This document shows, in pieces, positions 20,701 through 26,968 of a DNA stretch of 43,509 nt. The translations under genes and the position numbers were made by a program. The stretch comes from a virus. Its lineage: Duplodnaviria > Heunggongvirae > Uroviricota > Caudoviricetes. The DNA lies in IMG/VR virus record IMGVR_UViG_2703718810_000003, one strand, 5' to 3'. Positions within the stretch are counted from its first letter, which is position 1, and each line of letters begins with the position of its first letter. Below the pieces are notes generated by a model. It was not told the DNA's origin, did no database searches, and worked only from the letters and a program-made list of their open reading frames with translations.

Positions 20701-20846
20701 AGTTTCTTACCGTTATGGTTGACAATGGCGATGACTTTTCAATAAAAGAAAGGCGATATGTGTTACATATCGTTCTCCATGAGGATACTCCTCCGCCAGC
20801 GTCAGACTTATCCTCCCGTTCTCCTCTGCGCTGGCGTTTTTTTGTT

Positions 20847-22835: not shown

Positions 22836-22948
22836 GAATCCTCCCGGCCGGAATAATGTTCTGAGTCAGAGAAGGCTCGGGCTGACCTCCGGAAACACAA
22901 AAGTCACACAAAACAGCCCGCAAAAAAGAAATACGCCCTTACATACAG

Positions 22949-22978
22949 TTGCGCAATGTGATTACTGTAAGGTATTAT
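22949..22978 (+). promoter_or_regulatory. Sigma70-like promoter (TTGCGC-N18-TATTAT) of plus-strand unit 1
   Basis: -35 at 22949..22954, -10 at 22973..22978; same architecture repeated at 23881. Confidence 0.45.
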
Positions 22979-22984
22979 TAGGGC

Positions 22985-23053
22985 GCTGAATAAATTACTT
23001 CACGTTTTGTTATTTATTCCTTGCCAACCGCTCTTCCCTGGAGCGGTTTTTTT
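22985..23053 (+). ncRNA. Candidate ~70-nt small RNA (plus-strand unit 1), antisense to the nanS-p leader
   Basis: Promoter to terminator distance ~70 nt; U-rich body (auuacuucacguuuuguuauuuauuccuugcc) conserved with unit 2; terminator CCGCTC-TTCCCTG-GAGCGG plus T7. Confidence 0.4.
23028..23053 (+). terminator. Intrinsic terminator of plus-strand unit 1
   Basis: 6-bp GC stem plus 7 T. Confidence 0.6.
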
Positions 23054-23058
23054 GCATG

Positions 23059-23084
23059 TAAAAAGGCTCCTGCAATGAGGAGCC
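23059..23084 (-). terminator. Minus-strand terminator downstream of structured element 1
   Basis: GGCTCCT-loop-AGGAGCC followed by U-run on minus strand; convergent with plus-strand terminator at 23028. Confidence 0.45.
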
Positions 23085-23112
23085 TGGATGTATGCCTAAT
23101 CTCTGTATACTA

Positions 23113-23226
23113 CATGGTGCCGGGTGCCTCCCGGTGAGTTCAGTATCAGCACCTGAACCCGCACAGAAAGGATAGAGTAGAAACACCTGCGCTGATATGC
23201 CCCTCCGCTCAGGGGGATTCACCATG
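23113..23226 (-). ncRNA. Structured RNA-like element, copy 1 (strand assignment tentative)
   Basis: CATGGTG...CACCATG closing helix enclosing hairpins CCGGGTGCCTCCCGG and CCCCTCCGCNCAGGGGG; three paralogous copies in window. Confidence 0.45.
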
Positions 23227-23321
23227 CAGAACTTTTTTAACAACTCCCCGTCAGACAGGCAAGCATCAACCATCTGAACTGTGAGGGATTTAACATTTAA
23301 CAACACAGCCTTTTCCCGCAC

Positions 23322-23346
23322 AAAAAAAGCCCCTCAGGAGAGGGGC
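23322..23346 (-). terminator. Minus-strand terminator downstream of structured element 2
   Basis: GCCCCTC-AGGA-GAGGGGC followed by 7 U on minus strand. Confidence 0.55.
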
Positions 23347-23373
23347 CGATCGCTGTGTATACACCATAAGCAG

Positions 23374-23485
23374 CATAGTGCCGGGTGCCTCCCGGTAGAT
23401 TCAGCCTGACTACTGAATCTGCGTATTGTGACCATCGCTATGGAGACCATGTCAGACGCCCCTCCGCACAGGGGGATTCACTATG
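23374..23485 (-). ncRNA. Structured RNA-like element, copy 2
   Basis: Closing helix here is CATAGTG...CACTATG: both strands changed compensatorily relative to copies 1 and 3. Confidence 0.45.
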
Positions 23486-23723
23486 CTGGCTCGTTTTTAC
23501 AAGACTTCCATCAATCAGACAATAGTCCATCAACCGAATTGTGAGTCATTTAACATTTCCATGAGGTAACTGATATCCAGCTAACAATCATCTGCAATGG
23601 ACGAAGCCAGTTCCAGAACTTGCCCACACTACAGCAACAACCACTGCATTCCAAAAATGGAATTTTGGGAGATTACTTCTGCAAACAGCTACCGATAAAT
23701 ATATCCCTGATTGCCTGCGCAGT

Positions 23724-23837
23724 CTGTTCAAAACGCCCGGTATCCAGCTCAACGCCTATAGCACGACGCCCCAGCGCCATCGCTGCTTTAACTGCCGAAC
23801 CCTACCCCATGAAGAAATCTGCAACCAGGCCACCCGG
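23724..23837 (-). pseudogene. Internal fragment of a second DNA methyltransferase gene (paralogous to 25255..25368), with in-frame stop
   Basis: ~114 bp near-identical to the 3' region of the intact methylase; translation PGGLVADFFMG*GSAVKAAMALGRRAIGVELDTGRFEQ. Confidence 0.7.
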
Positions 23838-23880
23838 CAGAAGGGAGACTACAGCCCGCAATTCGAAAAAGGCCGCGCAG

Positions 23881-23910
23881 TTGCGCAGAGTGATTACTAT
23901 GGGGTATTAT
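23881..23910 (+). promoter_or_regulatory. Sigma70-like promoter (TTGCGC-N18-TATTAT) of plus-strand unit 2
   Basis: Paralogous to 22949..22978. Confidence 0.45.
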
Positions 23911-23916
23911 TCGCCA

Positions 23917-23984
23917 GCTGAAATATTACTTCACGTTTTATTGTTTATTCCTTGCCGCCCGCGTCTCCCAGCGCGGGCTTTTTT
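23917..23984 (+). ncRNA. Candidate ~70-nt small RNA (plus-strand unit 2)
   Basis: Same U-rich body as unit 1; terminator stem sequence entirely different (GCCCGCG/CGCGGGC) but structure retained. Confidence 0.4.
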
Positions 23985-23990
23985 GTCCAT

Positions 23991-24014
23991 AAGAAAGCCC
24001 CTCCAGAGAGGGGC
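23991..24014 (-). terminator. Minus-strand hairpin downstream of structured element 3
   Basis: GCCCCTC-CAGA-GAGGGGC followed by UUUCUU on minus strand. Confidence 0.4.
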
Positions 24015-24042
24015 TGAAGCCGCATTTCTGTATCACCATGAA

Positions 24043-24167
24043 CATGGTGCCGGGTGCCTCCCGGTGAGTTCAGCCCGGTGACACTAAACCCGCGTATTCT
24101 CGCTTACGATCATCAAAGAGATCATACCGTTCACCAGTCGCCCCTCCGCACAGGGGGATTCACCATG
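24043..24167 (-). ncRNA. Structured RNA-like element, copy 3
   Basis: Same conserved 5' and 3' blocks as copy 1 with a different central insert. Confidence 0.45.
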
Positions 24168-24303
24168 CGAAATTTTTTTAACAAATGCCCAGTCTGACAG
24201 GCAACTGTCAACTTACTGAATTGTGAGGAATTTAACACTTCACAGCACAATATCTTTCCAGCACCCCAAAATCATCTGGACAGGAGAAAATCTTCTCCCC
24301 CAG

Positions 24304-24732
24304 TCAGAGTTTAAAATCCAGCACGCCATTTCTAAATGCTTTATATACTCCTGAAGACGGTGGTGATGGTATATCAGCATTCTTTACTGCATTCATCGCT
24401 TCACGACATAAATCGGGATCACCGCTTTCTCTTTTAACCTGTAGCAGAAGACCATTCGGGGCCATATACATTCTCAGTGAACACTCTTTTCCTGAATACT
24501 TACCCGCATCCTTTAACTGTTCTTCTATGGCTTCCCTGACCTGAATGGCATACTGCCGGATTTCTTCACTGGCATCAGGGGTACGTTCCGATAAGCTCAA
24601 ATTTTGCGACTTTATTAATTTATCTGAGTGATGCAGCGAAGCATCATAATTATTTGTCGATACATCTTTTGTGCAGCCAGTTGTCAGACTGGCTAATATC
24701 AAAACAAGAACCGGTACAGCACGGCAATACAT
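24304..24732 (-). CDS. Lipoprotein with TolA C-terminal (domain III)-like domain
   Basis: Signal peptide plus lipobox (LILASLTTGC); C-terminal YAIQVREAIEEQLKDAGKYSGKECSLRMYMAPNGLLLQVKRESGDPDLCREAMNAVKNADIPSPPSSGVYKAF aligns with E. coli TolA C-terminus (YAGQIKSAIESKFYDASSYAGKTCTLRIKLAPDGMLLDIKPEGGDPALCQAALAAAKLAKIPKPPSQAVYEVF) as I recall it. AT-rich gene and flanks. Confidence 0.75.
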   Translation of the reverse strand: MYCRAVPVLVLILASLTTGCTKDVSTNNYDASLHHSDKLIKSQNLSLSERTPDASEEIRQYAIQVREAIEEQLKDAGKYSGKECSLRMYMAPNGLLLQVKRESGDPDLCREAMNAVKNADIPSPPSSGVYKAFRNGVLDFKL

Positions 24733-25010: not shown

Positions 25011-25087
25011 TGGACCGCCATCGAGGACTCGAACCCCGCGCAGCCAGCTCCGAAGGCTGGCGCTCTATCCCGATGAGCTAATGGCGA
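25011..25087 (-). tRNA. tRNA-Arg (anticodon UCG by my reading of the loop CUUCGGA)
   Basis: Cloverleaf foldable by hand: 7-bp acceptor (U1-G72 wobble), D-arm GCTC/GAGC with GG, anticodon stem CCAGC/GCTGG, T-arm CGGGG-TTCGAGT-CCTCG, encoded CCA. Confidence 0.8.
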
Positions 25088-25096
25088 TATGTGATA

Positions 25097-25172
25097 TGGT
25101 GGCCCTTGCTGGATTTGAACCAGCGACCTGGCGATTATGAGTCGCTCGCTCTCACCACTGAGCTAAAGGGCC
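25097..25172 (-). tRNA. tRNA with CAU anticodon (Ile2-lysidine type like ileX/ileZ, or Met)
   Basis: GGCCCTTTAGCTCAGTGGTGAGAGCGAGCGACTCATAATCGCC...TTCAAATCCAGCAAGGGCCACCA; near-identical to my recollection of E. coli ileX. Confidence 0.85.
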
Positions 25173-25212: not shown

Positions 25213-26271
25213 TCATCCGTTCTGGCTGGCTAAATCCTGAACTTCCCTGACCGTCTGCTCAAAACGTTCAGTCTCCAGCTCAACGCCTGTAGCACGACGC
25301 CCCAACACCATCGCTGCTTTGACTGTCGAACCCGACCCCATGAAGAAATCTGCAACCAGGTCACCCGGACGACTGCTCGCACTGATTATCTGCTGCAGCA
25401 TTTCTGCCGGTTTTTCGCACGGATGTTTCCCGGGATAGTACTGCACCGGTTTATGCGTCCACACATCGGTGTACGGCACCCGCACCGTCACACCGAAATA
25501 CCGCCGCAGATGCTTATATTCACTCTGCAGTTCCGTATACTGCCGGTTCAGTTCACTGTATGTGCTGACCAGTTGGTGATGTGGCTTTTCCAGTTCTCCG
25601 CGCTGATGCTTCTCTTCTGCCACCCGGGCATACAGCGCCTGTAATTTCAGATAATCGCTTTCGTCCGGTAACTGCCACTGGCTGGCACTGAACCAGTGCG
25701 ACACCATGTTTTTCTTTCCTGTGGCATCCACTATCTGTTTTGCCGTTATCCCCAGGGCAGCACGCGCATCACGAAAGTAAGAAATCAGCGGGGCCATCAC
25801 ATGCTGTTTCAGTGCCCTGCCCTTCGCCTCATACCCGGCATCTTTCGGGCGATACGGCCCCTGATAATGTTCCGCGAACAGAATGCGCTCTGTGGCGGGG
25901 AAATACGCCCTCAGGCTTTCCTTGTTGCACCCGTTCCAGCGTCCGGACGGCTTTGCCCAGATAATATGGTTCAGCACACTGAAGTGTTCACGCATCATGA
26001 TTTCGATATCAGATGCCAGGCGATGGCCACAGAACAGGTAAAGACTTCCGGCAGGTTTCAGCACCCGCCAGAACTGCGCAAGACACTGGTCCAGCCACTT
26101 CAGGTAATCATCGTCGCCCTTCCACTGGTTATCCCAGCCCTCAGGCTTCACTTTAAAGTACGGCGGGTCCGTGACTATCAGATCAACAGAATTTTCGGGT
26201 AACGACCGGATAAATTCCAGGCAGTCAGCGTTGATTAACTCACAACTGGATATTTTTACAGTGTTAAGCAT
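25213..26271 (-). CDS. DNA methyltransferase (N6-adenine / N4-cytosine family, beta-class motif order)
   Basis: 352 aa; DPPY motif near N-terminus (LIVTDPPYF) and FFMGSGST near C-terminus. Confidence 0.8.
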   Translation of the reverse strand: MLNTVKISSCELINADCLEFIRSLPENSVDLIVTDPPYFKVKPEGWDNQWKGDDDYLKWLDQCLAQFWRVLKPAGSLYLFCGHRLASDIEIMMREHFSVLNHIIWAKPSGRWNGCNKESLRAYFPATERILFAEHYQGPYRPKDAGYEAKGRALKQHVMAPLISYFRDARAALGITAKQIVDATGKKNMVSHWFSASQWQLPDESDYLKLQALYARVAEEKHQRGELEKPHHQLVSTYSELNRQYTELQSEYKHLRRYFGVTVRVPYTDVWTHKPVQYYPGKHPCEKPAEMLQQIISASSRPGDLVADFFMGSGSTVKAAMVLGRRATGVELETERFEQTVREVQDLASQNG

Positions 26272-26742: not shown

Positions 26743-26765
26743 AAAAAACCCCGCCAGTGGCGGGG
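26743..26765 (-). terminator. Intrinsic terminator (late-leader terminator 2)
   Basis: CCCCGCC-AGT-GGCGGGG followed by UUUUUUAU on minus strand. Confidence 0.6.
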
Positions 26766-26968
26766 ATCTTTTGATAAAAACGACAAAGGCACCATTAAGG
26801 TGCCTTTTACACAGGGCAGCAGGCTTGTCATCACCTTATTGCTACTCCTGGCTTCCAGTTCGGAAGTCTCACAAGTCCCATCAGGGTACAGCGACAGTAT
26901 CAGTCAACACTCTATGATTCTGCTGAACAGGCAGTTTCGCACTGTACATTATAACCTGTTAAGCCAAC

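What the first reader, a model, noticed from the sequence alone, without database searches (positions are those of the whole stretch)
23059..24260. Three paralogous ~115-nt structured elements with covariation in the late region: candidate novel ncRNA family
Copies at 23113..23226, 23374..23485 and 24043..24167 share a closing helix CATGGTG/CACCATG, hairpin CCGGGUGCCUCCCGG and hairpin CCCCUCCGCNCAGGGGG. Copy 2 has CATAGTG/CACTATG, a compensatory double change that keeps pairing. The variable centre is closed by a different short helix in each copy (ATCAGC/GCTGAT, CTGAC/GTCAG, GGTGAC/GTCACC-like). On the minus strand each copy follows a weak TTGYCT-N17/18-TAAAAA promoter-like sequence and precedes its own hairpin plus U-run. 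They do not fold as tRNAs and I cannot assign them to a known family.
Basis: seen in the sequence. Interest (0 to 1): 0.8.

Follow-up and report, generated by a model that had tools for sequence, protein, structure and literature searches.

The report
Three known STnc100 prophage sRNA genes
The three repeated structured elements are real small-RNA genes, but they belong to a family already catalogued in phage-derived DNA of E. coli and its relatives (STnc100, also called EcOnc27 or sRNA103), so the only possibly new points are an extra covarying loop-loop contact in the fold and the family's habit of forming tandem arrays.

Summary
All three copies match Rfam RF02076 (STnc100) end to end on the minus strand (121-169 bits against a gathering score of 47). 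The family occurs in about half of complete E. coli genomes and in 321 phage records. Its Stx2-phage member is the Hfq-bound, Northern-confirmed sRNA EcOnc27/sRNA103, and PasD1/PasD2 of EPEC are diverged relatives.

Each window copy is a complete gene of about 166-179 nt: a TTGYCT-N17/18-TAAAAA promoter, a 114-127-nt core (P1-P4), an AU-rich tail and its own terminator. The nested fold covaries strongly across more than 20 Enterobacterales genera.

The segment just after P2 pairs with the apical loop of P3, a kissing-loop or pseudoknot contact supported by permutation tests (6.1 vs 4.4 bp and 6.5 vs 4.7 bp). It is absent from the Rfam structure line and from the papers read.

Tandem arrays are common. 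Pantoea phages carry 3-7 cores a few nucleotides apart with a single terminator. Verdict: an already known family of unknown function, with modest added structural interest.

The parts
24175..24204 (-). Promoter-like sequence of copy 3: -35 TTGCCT (24204-24199), 18-nt spacer, -10 TAAAAA (24180-24175)
   Evidence: Exact pattern match. It aligns with the TTGACT-18-TAAAAA promoter of PasD2, whose RNA-seq 5' end lies 7 nt downstream.
23990..24168 (-). STnc100 copy 3, predicted transcript of about 179 nt: core 24168-24042 (P1, P2, Pc, P3, P4), tail 24041-24016, terminator 24015-23996 plus U-tract
   Evidence: RF02076 at 169 bits, model positions 1-206. Terminator. Nearly identical to L002_a. The 5' end is inferred by homology to the PasD2 start site.
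24075..24137 (-). Kissing pair of copy 3: L CUGGUGA (24137-24131) with L' UCACCGG in the P3 loop (24081-24075)
   Evidence: 7 bp including one G-U, duplex energy -8.9 kcal/mol. Family-wide permutation tests.
23494..23522 (-). Promoter-like sequence of copy 2: TTGTCT, 17-nt spacer, TAAAAA
   Evidence: Exact pattern match.
23321..23486 (-). STnc100 copy 2, predicted transcript of about 166 nt: core 23486-23373, tail, terminator 23347-23328 plus U-tract. P1 carries the compensatory A-U pair, and P3 is AGAUUCAG/CUGAAUCU.
   Evidence: RF02076 at 120.8 bits. Terminator. Identical core to L002_b.
23405..23456 (-). Kissing pair of copy 2: L UCUGAC (23456-23451) with L' GUCAGG in the P3 loop (23410-23405)
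   Evidence: 6-7 bp, duplex energy -8.7 kcal/mol.
23234..23262 (-). Promoter-like sequence of copy 1: TTGCCT, 17-nt spacer, TAAAAA
   Evidence: Exact pattern match.
23059..23227 (-). STnc100 copy 1, predicted transcript of about 169 nt: core 23227-23112, tail 23111-23086, terminator 23085-23064 plus U-tract. It is a chimera: the core is of L002_d type, and the tail and terminator are of L002_e / Sakai EcOnc27 type.
   Evidence: RF02076 at 164.1 bits. Segment identities: variable core 100% to L002_d and 53% to L002_e; tail and terminator 95% to L002_e and 63% to L002_d.
23144..23197 (-). Kissing pair of copy 1: L UAUCAGC (23197-23191) with L' GCUGAUA in the P3 loop (23150-23144)
Evidence: 7 Watson-Crick bp, duplex energy -7.8 kcal/mol.
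23878..23985 (+). Convergent plus-strand partner element of copy 3 (the 'dyad' partner). The predicted short sRNA is about 23932-23984 and ends in the terminator at 23957-23978.
   Evidence: 48 of 51 positions identical to the EPEC Hfq RIL-seq candidate E2348C_1409.E2348C_1408.IGR. Terminator. Same back-to-back geometry as EcOnc27/AsxR in Sakai Sp5.
22946..23054 (+). Convergent plus-strand partner element of copy 1, a paralogue of 23878-23985, with its terminator at 23026-23048
   Evidence: 89 of 106 aligned positions identical to the other partner element. Terminator.
23673..23837 (-). DNA-methyltransferase pseudogene remnant between copies 3 and 2, a scar of module shuffling
   Evidence: RefSeq annotation of the 99.9%-identical locus L001, mapped to window coordinates.

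Best explanation
The region holds three paralogous genes of the known prophage sRNA family STnc100 (Rfam RF02076; EcOnc27/sRNA103 in EHEC; PasD1/PasD2 of EPEC are diverged cousins). They lie in the 'moron' zone of a lambdoid prophage late operon, between Q, a methylase and two tRNA genes upstream and the NanS-like sialate esterase and lysis genes downstream.

Shown or directly supported:
- Each copy has its own sigma-70-type promoter-like sequence and its own intrinsic terminator.
- Each copy encodes a core of about 115-127 nt that folds into a closing helix P1 around hairpins P2, Pc (which holds the variable centre), P3 and P4.
- A variable 6-7-bp contact links the 5' side of the Pc loop to the apical loop of P3.
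- An AU-rich single-stranded tail of about 25 nt and a terminator with a U-tract follow the core.

Inferred from family members studied experimentally:
- In the lysogen each gene is transcribed independently of Q and terminates at its own terminator, giving an RNA of about 170 nt.
- That RNA binds Hfq through its terminator and U-tail and acts in trans on host and prophage mRNAs by limited base pairing.
- The conserved scaffold provides folding and stability. The variable parts (the centre with the kissing helix, and the tail) give each paralogue a different target set.
- During induction, Q-modified RNA polymerase coming from PR' reads through all three terminators to reach the esterase and lysis genes.

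Origin: the three-copy block is a recombinational collapse of a longer array. L002 has five copies, and window copy 1 is a fusion of its fourth and fifth.

Confidence by part: about 0.95 that these are STnc100-family sRNA genes; about 0.5 that their mechanism is classical Hfq-dependent trans base pairing. The single figure given (0.65) is for the whole statement.
For: - Family membership: three full-length RF02076 matches at 169, 164 and 121 bits against a gathering score of 47.
- Gene anatomy: promoter pattern 3 observed against about 0.02 expected; terminators; the same layout in all E. coli copies examined.
- Start site: the PasD2 RNA-seq 5' end falls on the G of GCAUGGUG, and my model's match to PasD2 starts at exactly that base.
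- Fold: 92.6% of cells paired with 22 of 26 pairs showing double changes on 101 distinct sequences; 94.4% paired with 20 of 29 on a structure-blind MAFFT alignment, against 40-44% in slid controls.
- Kissing helix: own pairing 6.11 bp against 4.40 +/- 0.11 permuted, none of 1,000 permutations above 4.76; replicated at 6.48 against 4.68 +/- 0.14 on an independent set, and retained in PasD2.
- Context: Q, RusA, methylase, tRNAs, esterase, holin and lysozyme. The Sakai Sp5 member lies 3' of stx2B and is convergent with AsxR.
- Experimental literature: EcOnc27/sRNA103 was confirmed by Hfq-CRAC and Northern blot, and its overexpression raises fimZ and espA transcripts (PMC7873438; PMC12711010). Convergent Hfq-bound sRNA pairs lie downstream of PR' in eight Sakai prophages (PMC4104026). 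PasD1/PasD2 were Northern-validated with many RIL-seq partners (PMC8550237). RpoD ChIP-exo shows binding at STnc100 promoters in Salmonella LT2 (PMC10794520).
- Array collapse: segment identities.
Against: - No transcript, Hfq-binding or target data exist for these particular copies or this strain. Expression is inferred from homologues.
- No seed has been defined for STnc100. Its function is listed as unknown (PMC9029176), and the proposed stxB pairing is only an in-silico 11-mer.
- The conservation pattern is the opposite of a typical Hfq sRNA: the scaffold and its loop sequences are the most conserved part, while the single-stranded tails are hypervariable (58 distinct tails with no shared motif).
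- In Pantoea phages the cores are packed 12-34 nt apart without individual tails, promoters or terminators. There the core itself, not a tail seed next to a terminator, must be the functional unit.
- PasD1/PasD2 RNA-seq levels change little in the hfq deletion (log2 fold change +0.55 and -0.18, not significant).
- The homologue set was recruited with an exact 18-mer that covers P4, so the apparent invariance of P4 is partly by construction.
Confidence: 0.65

Rival explanations
1. The conserved, kissing-loop-stabilised core is itself the functional module. It would be a protein-binding, decoy or scaffold RNA whose variable helix and centre encode specificity, and Hfq association and tail pairing would be secondary. 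Arrays would be batteries of differently 'addressed' modules expressed from the late-operon leader.
For: The scaffold and its loop sequences are conserved across more than 20 genera while the tails are hypervariable. Pantoea arrays hold 3-7 cores 12-34 nt apart with one terminator and an interleaved tRNA gene. Every core in an array has a different P1 and a different kissing helix. PasD levels change little in the hfq deletion.
Against: No partner protein gene is consistently adjacent; the flanks are ordinary Q, lysis or moron genes. Family members were recovered by Hfq crosslinking and by RIL-seq with many mRNA partners. Distinct kissing helices within an array could simply prevent misfolding between neighbouring repeats.
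Confidence: 0.2
2. The units are mainly cis-acting late-operon furniture. They would be promoter-leader-terminator cassettes, possibly relics of PR'-tR' modules from other lambdoid phages, that insulate the esterase and lysis genes from read-through in the lysogen and are overridden by Q. On this view the short RNAs are by-products, like lambda 6S RNA.
For: Position between Q and the lysis genes is conserved in E. coli, Pantoea, Klebsiella, Kluyvera and Superficieibacter. In Pantoea rodasii the array with its single terminator sits immediately upstream of the holin gene. Three minus-strand terminators occur within 1.2 kb here. The PR'-tR' transcript of Stx phages is known to give the sRNA StxS (PMC7873438).
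Against: A bare terminator cassette would not need five covarying helices and a covarying tertiary contact. The actual PR' of this prophage should lie next to Q, about 3 kb upstream. Some family members lie outside prophage late regions, for example L055 next to a KdgM-like porin.
Confidence: 0.1
3. A previously undescribed ncRNA family.
For: None remains after the database comparison. The public RefSeq annotation of identical loci lists no ncRNA there, which explains why the region looked unannotated.
Against: Full-length RF02076 matches with E-values down to 2e-38, and published descriptions of the family.
Confidence: 0.02
4. tRNA-derived or tRNA-like elements processed by the tRNA-maturation machinery.
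For: A junction closed by a 7-8-bp helix; a loop-loop contact reminiscent of a tRNA elbow; genomic neighbourhood of phage tRNA genes.
Against: ARAGORN and the Rfam tRNA model do not call them. Arm lengths and loop sizes do not fit a cloverleaf, and there is no 3' discriminator or CCA context. The E. coli copies have their own promoters starting at P1 and their own terminators.
Confidence: 0.03
5. Copies of a miniature mobile repeat, or the ends of a mobile element.
For: Multiple copies per genome (up to 12 places per genome), and an inverted-repeat-like closing helix.
Against: The copies differ in their centres while keeping RNA pairing through compensatory changes. Their position inside phage late operons is conserved. 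No transposase is associated, and the promoter and terminator are part of the conserved unit.
Confidence: 0.02

Closest known systems
STnc100 (Rfam RF02076) = EcOnc27 = sRNA103, the Hfq-bound sRNA 3' of stx2B in Stx2 phages
   Same: Full-length covariance-model match, the same fold, the same promoter and terminator layout, and the same place in the late operon. The tail and terminator of window copy 1 are 85% identical to the Sakai copy.
   Different: There are three tandem copies here instead of one, and no stx genes. The variable centre and kissing helix of each copy differ from the Sakai copy (59% identity in that segment).
PasD1/PasD2 of EPEC E2348/69 (EHEC homologue EcOnc13)
   Same: Shared promoter type, 5' strand of P1, P2, P3 and the kissing contact; shared position between Q and the sialate esterase; similar length of about 172 nt.
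   Different: PasD does not reach the RF02076 gathering score and scores only 37 bits with my model. It lacks a normal P4. It carries the proposed UGUGAG seed in a long tail, and that seed is absent from the three window copies.
Convergent sRNA 'dyads' of lambdoid prophages (EcOnc27/AsxR and EcOnc06/AgvB; Tree et al. 2014)
   Same: Copies 1 and 3 each face a short plus-strand element that ends in a terminator, with the two terminators back to back, as in Sakai Sp5.
   Different: The partner elements here are not AsxR or AgvB: Rfam gives no hit and there is no sequence similarity to AsxR. They match a different EPEC RIL-seq candidate. Copy 2 has no partner.
Multi-copy sibling sRNAs (Qrr1-5, OmrA/B, PrrF1/2)
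   Same: Paralogous sRNAs with a shared scaffold and partly divergent sequence, some of them arranged in tandem.
   Different: In those families the seed is the conserved part. Here the scaffold is conserved and the candidate specificity regions vary. This comparison rests on general knowledge and on the discussion in the Pas preprint.
Lambda 6S RNA and StxS (short PR'-tR' leader transcripts)
   Same: A short, terminated transcript inside the late operon that Q-modified polymerase reads through. StxS is Hfq-bound and acts in trans.
   Different: The STnc100 units are not at PR' in this prophage, have their own promoters, and have an unrelated and far more elaborate fold.

Membership tests
STnc100 (Rfam RF02076) | Covariance-model score at or above the curated gathering score (47 bits) over the full model | tested here: met
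   169.0, 164.1 and 120.8 bits, each over model positions 1-206 of 206.
STnc100 (Rfam RF02076) | Consensus secondary structure: closing helix, CCCCU/AGGGG hairpin, GGGUUCAG/CUGAACUC hairpin, CCGGG/CCCGG hairpin and a 3' terminator | tested here: met
   All helices form in the three copies. They covary across 101 distinct homologues and on a structure-blind alignment.
STnc100 (Rfam RF02076) | Location in a lambdoid prophage late region, downstream of Q in the moron zone before the lysis genes | tested here: met
   ORF map and RefSeq annotation of an identical locus. Same position as the Sakai Sp5 member.
STnc100 (Rfam RF02076) | Expressed as a discrete, Hfq-associated small RNA | not testable with these tools
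   Known only for homologues: EcOnc27/sRNA103 by Northern blot and Hfq-CRAC, and RpoD ChIP-exo in LT2.
PasD (PasD1/PasD2, EcOnc13) | Sequence-level similarity to PasD along the whole sRNA | tested here: not met
   Only the 5' scaffold aligns. The PasD loci give no RF02076 gathering hit.
PasD (PasD1/PasD2, EcOnc13) | Proposed seed 5'-UGUGAG-3' in the tail just upstream of the terminator | tested here: not met
   The three tails are AGUAUACAGAGAUUAGGCAUACAUCC, UGCUUAUGGUGUAUACACAGCGAUC and UCAUGGUGAUACAGAAAUGCGGCUUC, none of which contains UGUGAG.
PasD (PasD1/PasD2, EcOnc13) | Position between Q and the sialic-acid esterase gene | tested here: met
   Copy 1 ends about 220 nt upstream of the esterase start codon.
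tRNA | Cloverleaf recognised by tRNA-specific detectors | tested here: not met
   ARAGORN and Rfam RF00005 call only the two genes at 25011-25172.
AsxR/AgvB anti-sRNAs (for the plus-strand partner elements) | Match to RF02703 or RF02702, with the conserved 3' region of about 42 nt | tested here: not met
   No hit even at E-value up to 1. No similarity to Sakai AsxR. Only the convergent geometry is shared.

The most novel reading that the evidence does not exclude
STnc100 may not be an ordinary seed-pairing sRNA. It may instead be a modular, kissing-loop-locked RNA domain whose conserved scaffold presents a hypervariable 'address' made of the Pc-loop/P3-loop helix and the centre. Phages of Enterobacterales would deploy such domains singly or as co-transcribed arrays of differently addressed modules in the leader between Q and the lysis genes. 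That would point to a so-far undescribed function, such as a specific protein or RNA decoy or scaffold, or a processing-dependent RNA battery. The covarying tertiary contact and the multi-core arrays appear in none of the papers read and not in the Rfam structure line.
Probability: 0.2. Interest if true: 0.65.

Novelty: already known. Interest (0 to 1): 0.3.

Why it matters
As submitted, the finding re-discovers one of the most frequently annotated sRNA families in bacterial genomes, so it does not add a family.

It still has some value. STnc100 has no assigned function, although it sits next to Shiga toxin genes and sequence variants in it were flagged as predictive of HUS. Three results from this work bear on that gap:

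- A covariation-supported kissing-loop contact and an extra helix (Pc) that refine the published fold.
- Evidence that the units form arrays. These arrays collapse and expand by recombination within the conserved scaffold, and in Pantoea they look like single multi-core transcripts.
- The observation that the scaffold, not a seed, is what selection keeps.

Together these give concrete mutants and constructs with which to test what this widespread prophage RNA does.

Tried and rejected
- Novel family: rejected by Rfam.
- tRNA-like: ARAGORN and RF00005 are negative on the copies.
- The window copies are PasD: rejected. PasD aligns only over the 5' scaffold and fails the RF02076 gathering score.
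- The plus-strand partners are AsxR or AgvB: rejected.
- The element downstream of the esterase (20750-20845, plus strand) is PasA: rejected, because only a terminator aligns. It gives a weak, sub-threshold Esr41 hit.
- A shared seed motif in the 3' tails: none found. There are 58 distinct tails; ATACAG recurs only among some E. coli copies.
- A put-like cis antiterminator RNA: considered and rejected by reasoning. Homologues accumulate as discrete terminated sRNAs, and read-through from their constitutive promoters into the lysis genes would be lethal.
- Non-enterobacterial matches to the 18-mer (Streptomyces and others) gave no covariance-model hit, so they are chance matches.
- One DNA search failed on pattern syntax and was redone with fixed spacers.
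- I did not test a remembered resemblance between GUGAAUCCCC and the ERIC repeat consensus. It remains an untested lead.
Full report
1. WHAT IS THERE

The closing helix CATGGTG/CACCATG lies at 23113-23119/23220-23226 and at 24043-24049/24161-24167. Copy 2 has CATAGTG/CACTATG at 23374-23380/23479-23485, a true G-C to A-U double change. The two conserved hairpins are present in all three copies.

Aligning the copies on the minus strand shows that conservation extends beyond the 115-nt core. It runs about 70 nt upstream, into a promoter-like region, and downstream into a separate hairpin and T-run for each copy. The pattern TTGYCT-N17/18-TAAAAA occurs exactly three times in the 43.5-kb window, each time 6-7 nt upstream of a core, against about 0.02 expected by chance. 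Minus-strand intrinsic-terminator-like sites follow each copy at 23085-23064, 23347-23328 and 24015-23996.

2. WHAT IT IS

A scan of the window against Rfam gives three full-length matches (model positions 1-206 of 206) to RF02076, STnc100, all on the minus strand:
- 24197-23985, 169 bits
- 23255-23054, 164 bits
- 23515-23320, 121 bits

The gathering score is 47, and the E-values range from 2e-38 to 4e-26. The elements therefore belong to a curated family, and 'candidate novel ncRNA family' does not hold.

The neighbourhood is a lambdoid prophage late region read on the minus strand. In order it holds a DUF968 protein, RusA, Q, a DNA methylase, tRNA-Ile(CAU), tRNA-Arg(UCG), a 142-aa protein annotated 'TolA', the three sRNA copies, a SASA/NanS-like esterase, DUF1378, DUF826, holin, lysozyme and Rz. 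It is the architecture of an Stx phage without stx.

3. HOW COMMON

The 1.28-kb block finds matches in 321 phage records, mostly Stx-converting phages, and in 2,697 of 5,426 complete E. coli genomes (6,699 places, up to 12 per genome). Only 9 genomes carry the whole three-copy block. RefSeq annotation of an identical locus lists no ncRNA there, only a DNA-methyltransferase pseudogene remnant between copies 3 and 2.

4. WHAT THE LITERATURE SAYS

- Tree et al. 2014 (PMC4104026) found convergent Hfq-bound sRNA genes in the moron site downstream of PR'. In Sp5 these are EcOnc02 (AsxR) and EcOnc27, 3' of stx2B. Similar arrangements occur in Sp3, Sp4, Sp9, Sp10, Sp11, Sp15 and Sp17, 'related but not identical'.
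- The review PMC7873438 calls these arrangements dyads. It equates EcOnc27 with sRNA103, confirmed by Northern blot and Hfq-CRAC, and reports that overexpression raises fimZ and espA.
- PMC12711010 equates EcOnc27 with the STnc100 prediction downstream of stx2B.
- I verified this directly. In Sakai Sp5, RF02076 matches at 207.7 bits immediately 3' of stx2B, and AsxR (RF02703) lies on the opposite strand with the two terminators back to back.
- Zhu, Shabalina and Storz (bioRxiv 2026) conclude that PasD1/PasD2 of EPEC share an ancestor with STnc100 and lie between Q and the sialate esterase. PasD1/PasD2 are about 172 nt, Northern-validated and Hfq RIL-seq hubs (PMC8550237).
- In Salmonella LT2 the multiple STnc100 copies show RpoD ChIP-exo signal at their promoters.
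- Boutet et al. list STnc100 among the most abundant annotated sRNA families, with no function given.

5. RELATION TO PasD AND THE TRANSCRIPT MODEL

I fetched both PasD loci. PasD shares several features with the window copies: the TTGACT-18-TAAAAA promoter, GCAUGGUG, the P2 hairpin and the P3 hairpin. It lacks a normal P4 and 3' closing strand and has a different, longer tail. It does not reach the RF02076 gathering score but is found by my own model at 37 bits.

The RNA-seq 5' end of PasD2 (741157) is the G of GCAUGGUG. By homology, the window copies start at about 23227, 23486 and 24168 on the minus strand. They would end after their terminators at about 23059, 23321 and 23990, giving RNAs of about 169, 166 and 179 nt. 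The first roughly 29 positions of the Rfam model are therefore promoter DNA and not RNA.

6. THE FOLD AND ITS SUPPORT

RNAalifold on eight E. coli copies gives P1 (8 bp), P2, P3, P4 and the terminator. Single-sequence folds agree, with z-scores of -2.1 to -2.9.

To test covariation widely, I scanned species-representative genomes and IMG/VR for the invariant 18-mer of P4, built a covariance model of the core and searched the fetched loci. The search returned 104 and 128 full-length hits. They span Salmonella, Citrobacter, Klebsiella, Enterobacter, Kosakonia, Raoultella, Pantoea, Erwinia, Rahnella, Superficieibacter, Trabulsiella, Leclercia and others. The 18-mer hits in Actinobacteria and other distant groups gave no model hit, so they are chance matches.

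On the model-fitted alignment, 92.6% of cells pair, against 77% when the 3' letters are shuffled and 38-52% when partners are slid by 1-3 columns. Twenty-two of 26 pairs show double changes.

On a structure-blind MAFFT alignment of 26 diverse cores, RNAalifold recovers the same helices. There 94.4% of cells pair, against 40-44% in the slid controls, and 20 of 29 pairs show double changes. This run also adds a short helix, Pc. The GCNN just after P2 pairs with the NNGC just before P3, and its third pair covaries (GC 13, AU 6, CG 2, UA 2). Pc encloses the variable centre.

Caveat: P4 looks invariant partly because the homologues were recruited with an exact 18-mer that covers it.

The segment immediately 3' of P2 (call it L) is complementary to the apical loop of P3 (L'):
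- copy 1: UAUCAGC / GCUGAUA
- copy 2: (G)UCUGAC / GUCAGG(C)
- copy 3: CUGGUGA / UCACCGG

Other E. coli copies use CUGGUGU/ACACCAG and UGAUAUC/GAUAUCA. Because L' lies inside the P3 loop, this pairing crosses P3. With Pc in place, it amounts to a kissing interaction between the Pc loop and the P3 loop.

Across 92 distinct homologues, the best helix between the 14 nt after P2 and the sequence's own P3 loop averages 6.11 bp. When loops are exchanged between sequences it averages 4.40 +/- 0.11 bp, and the highest mean among 1,000 permutations is 4.76. Seventy-two percent of own pairings reach 6 bp or more, against 16% of permuted ones. A control using linker positions 15-28 gives 3.9 bp.

An independent set of viral contigs and E. 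coli loci gives 6.48 against 4.68 +/- 0.14 bp, with 40 distinct helices of 6 bp or more. PasD2 keeps the contact (AAUGAUCGAG/UUUGAUCAUU). The Rfam structure line shown does not include this contact, and the Pas preprint mentions no pseudoknot. Whether both helices form at the same time or alternate cannot be decided computationally.

8. ARRAYS AND ORIGIN OF THE THREE COPIES

The O113:H21 locus L002 has five RF02076 copies, four of them head to tail with a period of about 265 nt. Window copy 3 matches L002_a and copy 2 matches L002_b. Copy 1 is a chimera: its variable core is 100% identical to L002_d, and its tail and terminator are 95% identical to L002_e. The window block is therefore a recombinational collapse of a longer array, with the crossover inside the conserved P4/P1 segment.

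Among 235 cores, clusters on one strand within 700 nt have these sizes: 158 singles, 11 pairs, 8 triples, 5 quadruples, 1 quintuple and 1 sextuple.

All E. coli copies examined have their own promoter and terminator. The Pantoea arrays (L064, L100, L117, L110) are different. Their cores lie only 12-34 nt apart, with no promoter-like sequence or terminator between them and one terminator after the last core. Rfam's own thresholds accept these cores.

In Pantoea rodasii the order is NinG, an unassigned 200-aa ORF in the slot where Q sits in lambdoid phages, a core, a tRNA gene, further cores, one terminator, then holin and lysozyme. The three adjoining cores there each have a different P1: UGCGGUG/CACCGCA, GUCGGAACG/CGUUCCGGC and UUGCUAUG/CAUAGCAA.

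9. HOW IT MOST LIKELY WORKS

Shown by analysis here: three complete promoter-core-tail-terminator units of a family whose fold is under strong selection.

Inferred from studied homologues:
- The genes are transcribed constitutively by sigma-70 polymerase in the lysogen and terminate at their own terminators.
- The RNAs associate with Hfq through the terminator and U-tail and act in trans on host and prophage mRNAs.
- Q-modified polymerase reads through the terminators on induction.

The variable parts (the centre, the kissing helix and the tail) would give each paralogue its own specificity.

Weak points of this explanation:
- No seed is known for STnc100.
- The tails are hypervariable, with 58 distinct sequences and no shared motif, while the scaffold is what is conserved.
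- The tightly packed Pantoea arrays have no individual tails.
- PasD levels barely change without Hfq.

For these reasons I give about 0.2 to the rival that the core itself is the functional module, for example a decoy or scaffold. I give about 0.1 to a mainly cis-acting, insulating role.

10. COMPARISON AND NOVELTY

The copies meet every testable defining feature of RF02076. They are not PasD, not tRNAs and not mobile-element ends. Their plus-strand partners occupy the AsxR/AgvB slot but are not members of those families. Instead they match an EPEC RIL-seq candidate at 48 of 51 positions.

The finding is therefore already known as a family. What this work adds is a refined fold (Pc and the kissing contact), the prevalence and recombinational dynamics of arrays, and the multi-core arrangement in Pantoea. 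I found none of these in the papers read, but I cannot exclude prior description elsewhere.

11. VERDICT

Interest is 0.3. The added structural and organisational observations make a function-unknown family next to the Shiga toxin genes more testable.

Noticed in passing
window 22946-23054 (+) and 23878-23985 (+): Two paralogous plus-strand elements (89 of 106 aligned positions identical). Each ends in its own terminator, set back to back with the terminator of STnc100 copy 1 or copy 3. The last 53 nt or so (23932-23984) match the EPEC Hfq RIL-seq sRNA candidate E2348C_1409.E2348C_1408.IGR at 48 of 51 positions. They sit in the AsxR/AgvB slot of the Tree 2014 'dyads' but give no hit to either Rfam family.
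   Followed up: partly
window 20750-20845 (+): Weak, sub-threshold Esr41 match (31.8 bits against a gathering score of 102), with a plus-strand terminator abutting the esterase stop codon. This is where PasA/PasC sit in EPEC, but PasA itself does not align beyond the terminator.
   Followed up: partly
window 25011-25172 (-) and 24304-24732 (-): tRNA-Ile(CAU), which ARAGORN labels Met, and tRNA-Arg(UCG) correspond to ileZ and argN of Stx phages. argO and stx are absent, and a 142-aa protein annotated 'TolA' in RefSeq occupies the stx slot.
   Followed up: partly
window about 23673-23837 (-): DNA-methyltransferase pseudogene remnant between copies 3 and 2, while an intact methylase gene lies at 25213-26271. 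This is a scar of duplication or recombination of late-region modules.
   Followed up: partly
window 26744-26803 (-): Very weak isrK-like match (20.6 bits, E-value 0.52) just downstream of Q, where the PR' leader would be expected. Probably a chance match.
   Followed up: no
L055 3446-3570 (Kosakonia quasisacchari); also L053, L102, L041, L065, L084, L072: A 125-nt STnc100 variant (linker UCAUGCUGAUAUGA) is nearly identical across Kosakonia, Klebsiella, Raoultella and Enterobacter. In L055 it lies next to an ORF that looks by eye like a KdgM-type porin (not searched) and shows no obvious prophage genes. It may be a chromosomally fixed member of the family.
   Followed up: no
L110 2035-3650 (Pantoea rodasii); L064 950-1988 (Pantoea plasmid pAPP145_2): The leader between the Q-slot ORF and the holin gene is filled with STnc100 cores 12-34 nt apart, with one interleaved tRNA gene and a single final terminator. 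It looks like one multi-core transcript. Each core has a different P1 and a different kissing helix.
   Followed up: partly
L002 2163-5114 (E. coli O113:H21 FWSEC0010): Five STnc100 copies lie in one late region, four of them head to tail with a period of about 265 nt. A helix-turn-helix gene lies between the first copy and the rest. This is the likely parental arrangement of the window's three-copy block.
   Followed up: yes
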